Positions 52,501 to 61,667 of a stretch of DNA of 64,000 bases are shown here, piece by piece (position 1 is the stretch's first letter; every line of letters begins with the position of its first letter). Origin of the DNA: Lama glama (taxonomy: Eukaryota); the NCBI GenBank assembly GCA_028534125.1, contig CM052831.1, positions 21,762,001 through 21,826,000 of the forward strand. The letters are read 5' to 3'. Below the pieces are notes generated by a model. That model saw only the letters and a list, made by a program, of their open reading frames with translations, had not been told where the DNA came from and searched no databases. A program made the translations under genes and the position numbers.

Positions 52501-54861
52501 CAGGCCCCACTCTGACAGCTGCTGGAGCAGCTGGGGCAAGCTGTCGTCATCAGTCACCACCAGAGAACCCCTTAGGATGAAACAGAAGCAAAGGACTTAG
52601 AGTTTGGGAGTCTCTTCCTAGACTTCTGAGCTAGAGCGAGGGGCCCAGATGAGGTTTTCCCTTCCCTGGTTCTAGATGCTGTGATCTGGAACGGGGGTGG
52701 GAGGGTTGGATGTGGGGCCTGCTCTGCTTTGCTTTCACAAATGGCTCATCTCAGACTAACCTGCACCTTCCTTCCCACAGGCTTTGATGTTTTGGGTAGT
52801 AGACAATTTCCTCATGAGAAAGGGGAGGACGAAAGCTAAGCTAGAAGAAAGGGGAGCCAACCAGGACTCAAGGAATGGGAGCAAGGTCCGCTACCGAAGG
52901 GCCGCATCCCACGAGGAGTCGGAGTCTGAGGTAGGGCCAGGCCCTCGTGCCACTGACCCCAGAGGCCTCTGGTCTTGTGTTTGCGTCTGGCCTTCTCTTG
53001 AGTGCTGAGTCCCAGCGCCGGCTGGCGGGAGGGAAAGGAGGCTGACAGCTGCCATCCAGCCGGGAACCCATTCCTCCAGCAGGGATGTGGAGCATCAGGT
53101 GGGGGTGGCTTGCCTCCAACAGTCCATCTGTCGATGGAGAAAGACAAGAAAGGTGGGAGCTGCCTTGTTCTGGGGGAGCTGTCAAAGACGCATGGGCCTG
53201 ATCGTCGACCTTCAAGCATCAAGGCATTTGAATCCCTGCCCCGTGGCTAAGGAGCAAGGGAAGTGTTGGCTAAGCCAGCTAGAAACTTCTAAAGTGTAGG
53301 TGTGGCCAGACCTCCCAGGGAGAAGCTCATCTCCCCCTCTCCCCGTATTTTCAAGTTTCCTAAGCTCAGAGGTCTGGACTTCAGAGAGGATGGTGGTCAT
53401 AAATGGGAGCCTGGAGGCAAGATGGTGTGTCCCAGTCAGTCCGCAGCACACACTCTGCACCTGCACTGGGTCGGGGCTGCAGAACGGCTGAGGTGACGTC
53501 TTCCAAGAGAGGCCTTCAGGCTTGTGGATGAGGAAGGCGAAAGCCTGAGCAGCCCCCTGTAGCCTTCTGCGATGAGTCCTGACAGAGCCCTGAAAGGGCT
53601 TGGAGCAATCTGTTTAGCTCCTGGGGTGTCCTGTAGGGAGCTTTGAAAGCCGACTAGATGGAGGACAGAGGGGAAGTCCATCCCTTCTCTAGGTGGTCCT
53701 AGAATCTGGCATGGGGCCTGTCATGTTGGAAGAGTGCAGTGAACATGAGGTGAATGACAAACAGCATTACAGGCAGAAGCAGCCGCTCCTGAGCAATCGG
53801 GTCATGTGGTTTGGTGTTTGGGTGATAATGTGACATTCGCTGTGGCCAGAGCAGCGTATATTCTGAAAGCTGGGAGGGAAAGACAAGAAGTAGGTACAGG
53901 CAAAGATCTGAGCTCACTGGGCAAGGTGTTTGTGATCCAGGGCAAGGAATGGGGGTGCACTTGTGCAGGCAGCAGGGAGCCAGAGAGTGTTTAATCTGGG
54001 GACAGAGACTAGAGGCAGGAAGCCCTGCAGTGAGCAGTGGTGAGACCGCCCCGTCCTGGAGTGGAGTGAGCCCCCCTGCACAGGTGCGCCTTGGGCCTCT
54101 CTATCGTGACATGGGCTGTCCCAGTCCTTCCCTGGTGCTCTGGGGTCTGAGGAGCCAGGCGTGTGGGCAGTGGGTGAGTGTTTGCCCAGATGCCCTGGCT
54201 ACACTGCTGAGGCGTTCCGGGGGCTCGGAGAGTGGAGGGCTCTTGTTTGTCTTCAGAAGTTACTAGGCTGGTTCTGAGCAGCTACTCTGAAATCACTCTG
54301 CCTCACATGTGCCCCACAGATGTCTTTTTCTTTCGAAAAGGGCTTTTCACTTTTGCTTTTGCTGTATTAGAGACAACATCAGGGACCTGGGACTCCATGT
54401 GTCAAGACTGGGCTTTTTTTCCAGAATGACCGTAGGCTGAGTTTGTTCTGATGGGGGTTCAGTCCCAGCTAGAGGCTGGGTGAGAATCAGGGAGCGCAAG
54501 CGGAGGGGAAGGTGTTCGACTCAGTGCTGGTGTCGGTAGCCTGTGAAAGCATCTGGCGTGAATGAGATCTGGGGTGGACAAGCTTGTTTCTCTCTGTACA
54601 GGGAGCCTCCCTGTATCCTCTTCTAAAGAAACCTGAGACTCAAGGCCTCCTAGACAGGCTGCCATCCCATGCGGGGGTCCAGGGCAGGCAGGTAAAGAGG
54701 GCACTTCTGGTGATGACTCAGGGCCATGCCTCTCCGCCATTTAGATCCTGATCTCGGCCGATGATGAGATGGAGGAGTCCGACGTGGAGGAGGACCTCCG
54801 GAGACTGACCCCCCTAAAACCCTCAAAGAAAAAGAAGCACCGCTTCGGGCTGCCCGTATGA
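7110..54861 (+). CDS. STIMATE: STIM-activating enhancer (TMEM110), multi-pass ER membrane protein, 294 aa; join(7110..7269,40704..40752,42560..42655,45997..46118,50743..50855,51946..52023,52781..52930,54745..54861)
   Basis: Eight GT-AG exons (160+49+96+122+113+78+150+117 = 885 nt) splice into one open frame [10 protein letters not shown]...[11 protein letters not shown], nearly identical to recalled human TMEM110. Confidence 0.98.
10131..10191 (-). mobile_element. Extremely 5'-truncated, relatively young L1 3' end with 15-bp target-site duplication
   Basis: T-rich tail plus ttattgaagtgtagttgatttacaatgttg (cetartiodactyl-type L1 terminus), flanked by identical AAGTTGCTGTGTTTT at 10116-10130 and 10192-10206. 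Confidence 0.85.
11203..12040 (-). mobile_element. Ancient L1 3'-end remnant (L1MC4/5-like)
   Basis: Recognisable motifs acagaaaagctgaaaaataat...ccacctagattc and catttgaaagtaagttgcag...ctcctaagaataaggaca. Confidence 0.7.
12774..12795. repeat. (GT)11 microsatellite
   Basis: Direct reading. Confidence 0.95.
14065..14291 (-). mobile_element. MER20 (hAT-Charlie) DNA transposon, near full length
   Basis: Close match to recalled MER20 consensus (gataattctttgt..ggggctgttctgtgcattgtaggatgtt..gcagcatc.ctggcctctacccact.gatgccagtagc...gttgagaac). Confidence 0.9.
14780..14860 (-). mobile_element. tRNA-Ala(AGC)-derived SINE, Vic-1 type (camelid)
   Basis: Minus strand reads GGTATAGCTTAGTGGTAGTGCGCATGCTTAGCATGCACAAGGTCCTGGGTTCAATCCCTAGTACCACCA with Pol III A and B boxes. 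Possible TSD AGCCTTCT at 14772 and 14869. Confidence 0.85.
15215..15330 (-). mobile_element. MIR SINE fragment
   Basis: MIR core gaggttgagtgacctgcccaaggtcaca...agtggtagagccagg. Confidence 0.7.
18295..18565 (-). mobile_element. Ancient L1 (L1MC-like) fragment
   Basis: ttgggtttgtctgatgttttctcatgatt...tttcccttgtaattaat...tttgagaccatgtg. Confidence 0.6.
18650..18880 (-). mobile_element. MIR SINE
   Basis: Core ggagaaactgaggcacagagaggttaagt. Confidence 0.8.
19765..20890 (+). mobile_element. Old L1 (L1MB/ME-like) ORF2 3' part plus 3' UTR, degenerate; contains N gap 20080-20228
   Basis: aaaactataatacttctagaagaaaac...gaaaatctttgtgaccttggg; ccaaactggaaacagtccaagtgtccatcaaca; A-rich end at ~20890. 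Confidence 0.85.
20080..20228. other. Assembly gap (149 N)
   Basis: Run of N inside an L1 remnant. Confidence 0.99.
20895..21810 (+). mobile_element. Old L1M 5'/ORF1 region, degenerate (probably continuous with L1M 5'-UTR-like sequence at ~19200-19760)
   Basis: A-rich ORF1-like motifs (aagaagcaggaaa.tgtgacc...agccagaagacaatggaacaacatcttaaaagtgctgaaag..aacctgtcaacctaggattttatatccag) with many stops. Confidence 0.8.
22513..22998 (+). mobile_element. MaLR solo LTR (MLT1E/F-like)
   Basis: catgcccttgtgtagtcctctcccac...ttttaagccactaagtt...ttgttgcacagcagta..taactaata terminus. Confidence 0.8.
23362..24170 (-). mobile_element. Internally deleted Tigger1-family (TcMar-Tigger) DNA transposon; contains N gap 23570-23707
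   Basis: Terminal inverted repeats CAGGCAGACCT (23362) and AGGTCTGCCTG (ends 24170); TA on the left flank; body matches both Tigger1 ends. Confidence 0.88.
23570..23707. other. Assembly gap (138 N)
   Basis: Run of N inside the Tigger1 derivative. Confidence 0.99.
26434..26558. repeat. Decayed ~40-44 bp minisatellite, 3 units
   Basis: GACCAGGGA core recurs three times at ~44-bp spacing; units 2 and 3 share ctggga....agggttcc..gaccaggga(a)cagcag.ggt. Confidence 0.7.
29805..30300 (-). mobile_element. L2 LINE 3' region
   Basis: ttc.acaaatatt...gtgctagg...aaacagaacagaagttcctggtcttacagagctta.tttctagtgggg. Confidence 0.75.
35833..36258 (-). mobile_element. MaLR solo LTR (MLT1C-like)
   Basis: ggcttagcacaacagaa...tctcacagttctggaagcc...aatccaggatgatctc...aaggtcacattcacagg. 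Confidence 0.85.
36575..36660. repeat. Degenerate (GGAT/GGGT/GAAT)n purine-rich simple repeat at an L2 tail
   Basis: gggagggaggaatgggtggatgagtggaaagatggatagatgaatgaatgggtgga... Confidence 0.7.
38414..38807 (-). mobile_element. MaLR solo LTR (MLT1B-like), TG...CA intact, inserted into an L1MC-like remnant (~38300-39030)
   Basis: 394 bp with TG/CA termini; 5-bp TSD CCACA/CTACA (4/5 match); L1MC motifs continue on both sides. Confidence 0.88.
40704..40752 (+). CDS. STIMATE: STIMATE exon 2 ([17 protein letters not shown]), 49 nt; missed by the ORF track
   Basis: Acceptor tcttttctttcag; donor TG|GTGTGT; phases 1/2 fit both neighbours. Confidence 0.96.
41905..42083 (+). mobile_element. MER58A-like hAT-Charlie DNA transposon
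   Basis: CAGGAGTTGGCAAACT...tggcccacaaagcctgaaatacttactctctggcactttac.aaaaagt...CCCCTG. Confidence 0.82.
42560..42655 (+). CDS. STIMATE: STIMATE exon 3 ([32 protein letters not shown])
   Basis: Acceptor ttctattctgtacag; donor TT|GTAAGT. Confidence 0.97.
44440..44640 (-). mobile_element. MIR SINE
   Basis: attatcctcattttacag...ctgaggcacaga...ctgggatttgaacccag. Confidence 0.75.
45997..46118 (+). CDS. STIMATE: STIMATE exon 4 ([12 protein letters not shown]...WESLRFGEY)
   Basis: Acceptor ccctctcctcacag; donor ACG|GTAACT; ends in phase 1. Confidence 0.97.
47985..48465 (-). mobile_element. MaLR solo LTR (MLT1D-like)
   Basis: taacaaattactacaaa.ttttagtggcttgaaacaacacaaatttatc...cagttctgtag.tcagaagtc...gggattaggatgcggacat. 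Confidence 0.85.
50743..50855 (+). CDS. STIMATE: STIMATE exon 5 ([12 protein letters not shown]...LLILQWKK)
   Basis: Acceptor ccgtccctgcag; donor AAG|GTTTGC. Confidence 0.97.
50935..50979. repeat. Tandem duplication, 23+22 bp
   Basis: CCCTACTGGGAAACAAAAATGGT followed by CCCTACTGGGAAACAAAATGGT. Confidence 0.95.
51946..52023 (+). CDS. STIMATE: STIMATE exon 6 ([26 protein letters not shown])
   Basis: Acceptor tttccttctcttcacag; donor AAT|GTCAGT. Confidence 0.97.
52781..52930 (+). CDS. STIMATE: STIMATE exon 7 ([12 protein letters not shown]...[10 protein letters not shown])
   Basis: Branch-like ACTAAC, then ccttccttcccacag acceptor; donor GAG|GTAGGG. Confidence 0.97.
54745..54861 (+). CDS. STIMATE: STIMATE last coding exon ([38 protein letters not shown])
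   Basis: Acceptor cctctccgccatttag; acidic stretch then polybasic tail; TGA at 54859-54861. Confidence 0.97.

Positions 54862-61667: not shown

What the first reader, a model, noticed from the sequence alone, without database searches (positions are those of the whole stretch)
54853..61244. STIMATE's last codon plus stop (GTA TGA) doubles as a phase-0 splice donor, predicting an in-frame 372-aa STIMATE-MUSTN1 fusion
Seen: the CDS ends CCC|GTA TGA C. GTATGA fits a 5' splice site (GT, +3 A, +5 G) exactly at a codon boundary, and MUSTN1 exon 2 (61242) begins in phase 0. Removing 54856..61241 (6386 nt) deletes the stop, both STIMATE poly(A) signals, and the MUSTN1 promoter and exon 1. The product is 293+79 = 372 aa with junction ...[24 protein letters not shown].... 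Established: a STIMATE-MUSTN1 read-through is annotated in human. Inference: the capacity is retained in this non-primate lineage. The fusion would tether MUSTN1 to the cytosolic tail of an ER Ca2+-entry regulator and place two polybasic clusters side by side. The exonic CCC makes the donor weak, so usage should compete with polyadenylation.
Basis: partly seen in the sequence, partly recalled or inferred. Interest (0 to 1): 0.75.

Follow-up and report, generated by a model that had tools for sequence, protein, structure and literature searches.

The report
Known STIMATE-MUSTN1 read-through fusion site
The end of the STIMATE gene holds a weak splice signal that lines up in frame with the neighbouring MUSTN1 gene, matching a read-through fusion already catalogued in humans and predicted in many vertebrates; here it is likely a minor by-product, and its use was not shown.

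Summary
The anatomy is exactly as described: STIMATE (294 aa) ends CCC GTA TGA; joining 54855 to 61242 removes 6386 nt and gives an open 372-aa STIMATE-MUSTN1 frame, 362/372 identical to the pig RefSeq model. It is not new: the human read-through is an annotated locus, and models with this junction exist for pig, camel, gorilla, marsupials, turtles, birds, a frog, bichirs and teleosts. A bird contig shows the same geometry in DNA. But the donor is weak: lowest of 10 donors scored, matched or beaten by 32% of GT sites. The terminal Pro-Val is already in lamprey, and the paralog ends in Val/Ile too, so protein constraint can supply the GT. Seven non-placental models carry linkers nearer the primate linker than each other, a sign of projection from the primate protein. 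No junction reads were obtained. Verdict: known read-through, likely minor; selection on it is unproven but not excluded (GTA TGA, the best of 12 Val-stop options, in camelid-like window, human and bird).

The parts
7110..7269 (+). STIMATE coding exon 1 (ATG 7110)
   Evidence: tblastn with pig model; boundaries
40704..40752 (+). STIMATE exon 2
42560..42655 (+). STIMATE exon 3
45997..46118 (+). STIMATE exon 4
50743..50855 (+). STIMATE exon 5
51946..52023 (+). STIMATE exon 6
52781..52930 (+). STIMATE exon 7; its phase-0 donor is also in frame with MUSTN1 exon 2 (335-aa alternative)
54745..54861 (+). STIMATE last exon, coding part (38 aa plus stop; acidic then basic tail)
54853..54861 (+). Pro-Val-stop codons CCC GTA TGA = weak candidate 5' splice site, GT at 54856
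   Evidence: GTA TGA C also in bird locus L006 and in a human primer
54856..61241 (+). Predicted read-through intron, 6386 nt
   Evidence: use not shown
55485..55490 (+). Proximal AATAAA (candidate poly(A) signal), just after a bird-conserved AU-rich block 55371-55476
58402..58407 (+). Distal AATAAA, conserved in bird within block 58374-58433, followed by a GT-rich stretch
60076..60082 (+). MUSTN1 TATA-like box TATATAA
   Evidence: same motif before bird MUSTN1 exon 1
60161..60169 (+). MUSTN1 exon 1 coding part (Met-Ser-Gln), phase-0 donor
   Evidence: same in bird
61242..61374 (+). MUSTN1 exon 2, acceptor of the predicted fusion; holds the basic cluster
   Evidence: PF15682
61561..61667 (+). 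MUSTN1 exon 3 coding part
61810..61815 (+). AATAAA after MUSTN1

Best explanation
STIMATE's last codon and stop form a weak, in-frame splice donor for MUSTN1 exon 2, the counterpart of the annotated human read-through, and it is likely used only as a minor by-product when transcription runs past STIMATE's poly(A) signals. Shown: the donor, the phase-0 acceptor, the open 372-aa frame, and the same layout in a bird contig. Inferred: polymerase that escapes cleavage at 55485/58402 runs about 1.7 kb on into MUSTN1; the strong MUSTN1 exon-2 acceptor then needs an upstream donor, and the GT at 54856 lets exon 8 be defined as an internal 111-nt exon; splicing drops the stop, the 3' UTR and MUSTN1 exon 1. 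Predicted: an ER membrane protein whose disordered cytosolic tail is 78 residues longer and has a second basic cluster but no terminal valine. Inferred: the capacity persists mainly because the protein keeps a C-terminal Pro-Val (which supplies GT in phase 0) and MUSTN1 intron 1 is phase 0.
For: Anatomy and 362/372 identity to the pig model. Human read-through locus annotated (passages in PMC11894363; table row in PMC12841848); same junction in gorilla, pig and camel models. For 'minor': donor lowest of 10 scored, 1246 of 3849 GT sites score as high; distal poly(A) block conserved to birds; 0 of 39 Logan/ENA-only MUSTN1-bearing proteins carry the junction (three regex hits were intron translations; weak, since such contigs break at branches); no TMEM110 entry in the 4 supplementary files searched of a normal-tissue chimera survey (PMC4824105; file 1 not searched). 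For 'by-product': 122 of 127 non-fusion tails end Pro-Val-stop (rows not independent), lamprey STIMATE ends Pro-Val, and 4 of 5 named TMEM110-like proteins end in Val or Ile. Tail: no hydrophobic window after residue 220; pLDDT below 50 over 221-328 and 344-372 in a low-confidence model of the pig form (mean 55).
Against: GTA TGA is the best-scoring of the 12 Val-stop combinations and occurs in all 3 lineages seen (window, bird L006, human primer), although only 18 of 51 four-fold sites in exons 5-8 agree between bird and window. The gene pair has stayed adjacent, and 9 of 13 species-matched pairs show the exact 'STIMATE minus Val + MUSTN1 minus Met-Ser-Gln' join. These fit selection on the donor. 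Against any use here: no junction reads were obtained.
Confidence: 0.55

Rival explanations
1. An ancient, selected alternative C-terminus: exon 8 is a composite internal/terminal exon, and a splicing-versus-polyadenylation choice swaps STIMATE's terminal Val for the MUSTN1 domain in bony vertebrates.
For: Fusion models in 98 of 225 distinct held proteins with the tail motif, from bichir and teleosts to mammals; exact join in 9 of 13 species pairs; bird DNA keeps GTA TGA C with MUSTN1 exon 1 (phase 0) 7.6 kb downstream; best of 12 Val-stop options in 3 of 3 lineages.
Against: All 98 are computed gene models. Seven non-placental models insert a 6-residue linker with mean identity 3.4/6 to the primate linker but 2.1/6 to each other; related pairs share 3, 1 and 3 of 6 while their flanks share 53-59 of 60: this looks like projection from the primate protein (inference). 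Tasmanian devil is annotated fused in one record and Pro-Val-stop in two others. The exonic half of the donor stays poor in bird and window. Conservation runs on past the donor (+7..+15: 7/9 identical against 2-3/9 after four true donors), which points to a 3' UTR or stop-context constraint. Three lineages is a small sample.
Confidence: 0.2
2. The donor is practically unused in this species; the fusion exists only as a possible frame and as models projected from the human annotation.
For: Weak score; linker pattern; the 'TMEM110-MUSTN1' qPCR primers of PMC11894363 both lie, by eye comparison with the window, in MUSTN1 exons 2-3 and cannot report the junction; no hit in the chimera tables searched.
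Against: Curated read-through loci in CCDS are described as having more than one independent line of support (PMC3308164 passage; whether this locus is among them was not checked); the donor core is the same as in human.
Confidence: 0.18
3. Read-through does occur but mostly follows the usual pattern: exon 7 (second-to-last) joins MUSTN1 exon 2, skipping exon 8, giving 335 aa without STIMATE's acidic/basic tail.
For: Exon-7 donor 4.0 bits against -2.7; frame open, 335 aa; this join is the Hyla sarda model P0111; skipping the terminal exon is the commonest conjoined-gene pattern (PMC2953495 passage).
Against: Only 1 such model was noticed, against 98 with the exon-8 tail; I did not search for it systematically.
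Confidence: 0.07

Closest known systems
Human STIMATE-MUSTN1 (TMEM110-MUSTN1) read-through locus, Gene ID 100526772
   Same: Same gene pair and order; same donor core (human primer shows CCC GTA TGA CAC); gorilla model XP_018879186.3 is 372 aa with the same join.
   Different: The human protein itself was not among the records I saw; that it is 372 aa with this join is inferred from gorilla and recalled. Transcript support in this species is untested.
RefSeq/GenBank fusion models in other vertebrates (pig XP_020924610.1; Camelus ferus CB1_001347004; bichir XP_028680530.1; cichlids; turtles; marsupials)
   Same: Same donor after the Pro; direct join to MUSTN1 exon 2 in 9 of 13 species pairs. 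The camel model is 97-98% identical to the window over exon 8 and MUSTN1 exon 2.
   Different: They are predictions; some carry non-conserved linkers; the camel model is also merged with an upstream gene.
Conjoined genes / cis-splicing between adjacent genes (Prakash et al. 2010, PMC2953495)
   Same: [quoted passage not shown]
   Different: The donor lies inside the last exon, on the final codon, instead of at the second-to-last exon. That paper found no significant conservation of human junctions in fish or frog.
Composite internal/terminal exons such as the IgM secreted/membrane switch (recalled, no call)
   Same: A donor inside the terminal exon competing with downstream poly(A) signals, swapping the C-terminus.
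   Different: The downstream exons belong to a separate gene with its own TATA promoter; no regulated switch is shown.

Membership tests
Read-through transcript (CCDS definition, PMC3308164) | Two distinct same-strand genes, each with its own start and end | tested here: met
   Separate ORFs (294 and 82 aa), AATAAA signals and MUSTN1 TATA box
Read-through transcript (CCDS definition, PMC3308164) | Transcript shares exons or splice sites with both genes | tested here: met
   For the predicted form: exons 1-7 of STIMATE and 2-3 of MUSTN1
Read-through transcript (CCDS definition, PMC3308164) | More than one independent line of transcript support | tested here: inconclusive
   No read data obtained for this species; 0 of 39 assembly-derived MUSTN1 proteins carry the junction (weak); published primers do not span it
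Conjoined gene, common pattern | Short distance between the genes | tested here: met
   1674 nt from distal AATAAA to MUSTN1 TATA
Conjoined gene, common pattern | Second-to-last exon joined to second exon | tested here: not met
   The described join uses a donor within the last exon; the exon-7 join is possible and in frame
Selected composite terminal exon | Donor conserved beyond protein constraint | tested here: inconclusive
   GTA TGA in 3 of 3 lineages, best of 12 options; but Pro-Val is in lamprey and conservation extends past the donor
Selected composite terminal exon | Regulated, tissue-specific switch and a protein product | not testable with these tools
   Needs junction counts and proteomics
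STIMATE (PF12400) plus Mustang (PF15682) two-domain protein | Both Pfam domains above cut-off in one chain | tested here: met
   Pig form P0025: 118 and 142 bits; window exon 2: Mustang 72 bits; window form 362/372 identical to P0025

The most novel reading that the evidence does not exclude
The STIMATE-MUSTN1 splice is a real, selected isoform as old as bony vertebrates: a donor hidden in the last codon and stop has been kept from fish to mammals to give the ER calcium-entry regulator a second, MUSTN1-bearing C-terminus, making it one of the oldest protein-coding read-through fusions; Mustn1 exon 2-3 knockouts would then also remove a STIMATE isoform.
Probability: 0.2. Interest if true: 0.7.

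Novelty: already known. Interest (0 to 1): 0.25.

Why it matters
As it stands, little: the fusion is a named human locus and is already modelled in pig and camel. Two practical points remain. Assays labelled 'STIMATE-MUSTN1' may measure MUSTN1 alone (the primers do), and the breadth of database models is not independent proof of expression. If the selected-isoform reading held, it would be a rare read-through conserved from fish to mammals, would link a muscle microprotein to ER-plasma-membrane calcium signalling, and would bear on the Mustn1 knockout that deletes exon 2 and part of exon 3 (PMC10950823 passage). My ten paper searches listed no study of the fusion's conservation or protein; the library lacks most subscription journals.

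Tried and rejected
Junction reads: 24 runs were listed but no reads or contigs were laid, so the direct test is open; the word shares of unlaid runs are not used as evidence. No own genome is held. DNA motif scans for other vertebrates: 1 of 13 metagenome hits was a real STIMATE locus (L006, bird-type), 0 of 5 in prokaryote genomes, 0 in viral contigs. Bird MUSTN1 exon 2 lies beyond the DNA held and could not be fetched, so the bird acceptor and the duck/budgerigar linkers were not checked in DNA. No shark or lamprey fusion among 66 hits (only 8000 candidates scored) or the 120 listed of 140: weak; whether lamprey has MUSTN1 was not settled. Supplements: PMC2953495 unreadable, PMC7038929 held only 344 characters; both could hold junction records. 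PMC4589512 (original STIMATE paper) not held. Two Mustn1 reviews and the knockout paper have 0 mentions of TMEM110/STIMATE/read-through. Earlier scan findings: none. The structure model is low-confidence and was not used for a fold search. Rejected: treating the 98 models as proof of expression; treating the motif match as beyond chance; treating terminal Val conservation as splice-site conservation.
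Full report
Observation. The window holds STIMATE (TMEM110) and MUSTN1 in tandem on the + strand. Eight coding exons, located with the pig model and closed on GT-AG ends, give 294 aa ending Pro-Val-stop at 54853-54861 (CCC GTA TGA). MUSTN1 has three coding exons and 82 aa; its first intron falls after Met-Ser-Gln, in phase 0, and exon 2 begins at 61242. 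Joining 54855 to 61242 removes 6386 nt and leaves a 372-aa open frame, 362 of 372 residues identical to pig XP_020924610.1, which carries both PF12400 and PF15682. The nearest held relative is a Camelus ferus model, 97-98% identical over the two junction exons, so the window is camelid-like; I did not fix the species.

Is the donor more than chance? On an approximate position matrix (frequencies recalled and rounded) it scores -2.7 bits, lowest of the 10 donors scored (others -0.6 to 5.0), and 1246 of 3849 GT sites in the window score at least as well. The motif alone is ordinary. Among the 12 ways of writing Val plus stop, however, GTA TGA scores best.

It is already annotated. The human read-through is a named locus (PMC11894363, passages seen; PMC12841848, one table row seen). 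A search with MUSTN1 exon 2 for longer proteins, one with a fusion's C-terminal region and one with a MUSTN1 profile returned two-domain models from primates, pig, deer, bats, rodents, marsupials, birds, turtles, geckos, salamanders, frogs, coelacanth, bichirs, gar and many teleosts. Of 225 distinct held proteins with the STIMATE tail motif, 122 end Pro-Val-stop, 98 continue into MUSTN1 and 5 do neither (pattern-based; representatives, members and isoforms mixed, so rows are not independent; the exon-7-type model P0111 lacks the motif and is not counted). In 9 of 13 species where I held both forms, the fused tail equals MUSTN1 after Met-Ser-Gln exactly; one more joins two residues further in, three have odd linkers.

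That breadth is not independent proof. All are computed models. Seven non-placental models (duck, budgerigar, two geckos, axolotl, newt, opossum), picked because they have a linker, insert six residues that average 3.4 of 6 identity to the primate linker but 2.1 of 6 to one another; related pairs share 3, 1 and 3 of 6 while the next 60 residues share 59, 56 and 53. Real conserved micro-exons would follow kinship; a star around the primate sequence is what alignment of the primate protein would produce (inference). The bird contig shows exon 1 ending after Met-Ser-Gln, which agrees with the direct bird models and not with the linkers, though bird exon 2 was outside the DNA held. Tasmanian devil appears fused in one record and unfused in two. 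The TOGA2 preprint (passages seen) says it removes fusion transcripts from its inputs because they may be read-through or misannotation.

Independent DNA evidence. A motif scan of metagenomes gave 13 hits, one a true bird-type STIMATE locus (L006). It ends CCT GTA TGA CAC GTT CCC against CCC GTA TGA CGC ATT CCC in the window, and has a TATA box and MUSTN1 exon 1 with a phase-0 donor 7.6 kb downstream on the same strand. A human qPCR primer in the supplement of PMC11894363 covers the same spot and reads CCC GTA TGA CAC. So 3 of 3 lineages use the best option, while 18 of 51 four-fold sites in exons 5-8 agree between bird and window. This is suggestive, not decisive: one codon position, one stop, three lineages. 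The identity also continues at +7..+15 (7 of 9, against 2-3 of 9 after four true donors), beyond most of the U1 footprint (recalled), which fits a 3' UTR or stop-context constraint as well. The distal poly(A) block is conserved in the bird, so termination is itself maintained.

Why the GT is there. Lamprey STIMATE already ends in Pro-Val, and 4 of 5 named TMEM110-like proteins (56-63% identical to the coelacanth query; gene neighbours not checked) end in Val or Ile. A C-terminal valine kept for the protein's sake (trafficking or binding; inference) supplies GT in phase 0 at no cost. Whether lamprey has MUSTN1 was not settled (listing only).

Transcript evidence. 0 of 39 MUSTN1-bearing proteins known only from Logan/ENA assemblies carry the junction (three pattern hits were translations of intron sequence; weak, as such contigs break at branches). 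The primers labelled TMEM110-MUSTN1 in PMC11894363 match, by eye, MUSTN1 exons 2-3 only, so that qPCR does not show the junction. The chimera survey PMC4824105 has no TMEM110 entry in 4 files searched, one file not searched; PMC7038929 and PMC2953495 supplements were not usable and could bear on this. CCDS curators state that the read-throughs in their set have more than one line of support (PMC3308164, passage seen); I did not check that this locus is among them.

Mechanism. Most likely (0.55): occasional escape from the poly(A) signals carries polymerase 1.7 kb on to MUSTN1 (distance); the exon-2 acceptor pairs with the weak donor at 54856, exon 8 becomes a 111-nt internal exon, and a minor 372-aa form results. 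STIMATE has a cytosolic tail at residues 214-294 with acidic and basic motifs that act on STIM1, TRPML1 and STING (PMC12910075, passages seen); MUSTN1 has a basic nuclear signal at 10-18 (PMC5796155, passages) and is also reported as secreted (PMC11276411, passages). In the fusion nothing after residue 220 is hydrophobic and residues 281-305 hold 10 Lys/Arg against 1 acidic; a low-confidence model of the pig form (mean pLDDT 55) leaves the tail disordered but for two short helices. The product would be membrane-anchored MUSTN1 sequence on a longer basic tail; any effect on calcium entry is untested. Rivals: a selected ancient isoform (0.2), practically no use here (0.18), read-through through the exon-7 donor, also in frame at 335 aa and seen in the Hyla model (0.07).

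Comparison and verdict. It works like a conjoined-gene splice, differing from the common pattern (PMC2953495, passages seen) in using a donor inside the last exon. It meets the structural parts of the read-through definition; transcript support here is open. Ten paper searches (listings seen) showed no study of its conservation or protein, in a library that lacks most subscription journals. Novelty: already known. Interest 0.25; 0.7 if the fish-to-mammal selected isoform (probability 0.2) were shown.

Noticed in passing
window 59967-59992; L006: A block with AATAAA (59986) about 90 nt before the MUSTN1 TATA box is 23/26 identical in the bird (E 0.07): a promoter element or a last poly(A) signal shielding MUSTN1 from read-through.
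   Followed up: no
window 55035-55066, 55371-55476, 58374-58433: Three STIMATE 3' UTR blocks are 76-88% identical in the bird contig; candidate regulatory elements.
   Followed up: partly
window 54859-54870: The stop is TGA followed by C in window, bird and human primer, a context recalled as leaky; the next codons are similar in bird and window. Could explain conservation here without splicing.
   Followed up: no
window 61242-61257: MUSTN1 exon 2 has an internal CAG 12 nt in; marsupial MUSTN1 (78 aa) starts its exon-2 part at the matching position, placental MUSTN1 (82 aa) four residues earlier: the acceptor may have shifted upstream in placentals.
   Followed up: partly
window 7270-40703: STIMATE intron 1 is 33.4 kb, most of the gene; two N runs at 20080-20228 and 23570-23707.
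   Followed up: no
window 9032-9175: A stretch of intron 1 matches a 48-aa 'exon' of the Camelus ferus merged model P0005 at 94%; probably a prediction artefact.
   Followed up: no
PMC11894363 supplement, file 2 row 31: Primers labelled for the read-through lie within MUSTN1 exons 2-3 and do not span the junction.
   Followed up: yes
P0032, P0070, P0073, P0327: Some models merge MUSTN1 with inter-alpha-trypsin inhibitor heavy-chain genes as well, showing that this cluster is prone to merged predictions.
   Followed up: no
P0172 versus P0180 and others: The tarpon fusion model is named mustn1a, while cichlid MUSTN1 in the fusion's cluster is named 1b: both teleost duplicates may keep the layout.
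   Followed up: no
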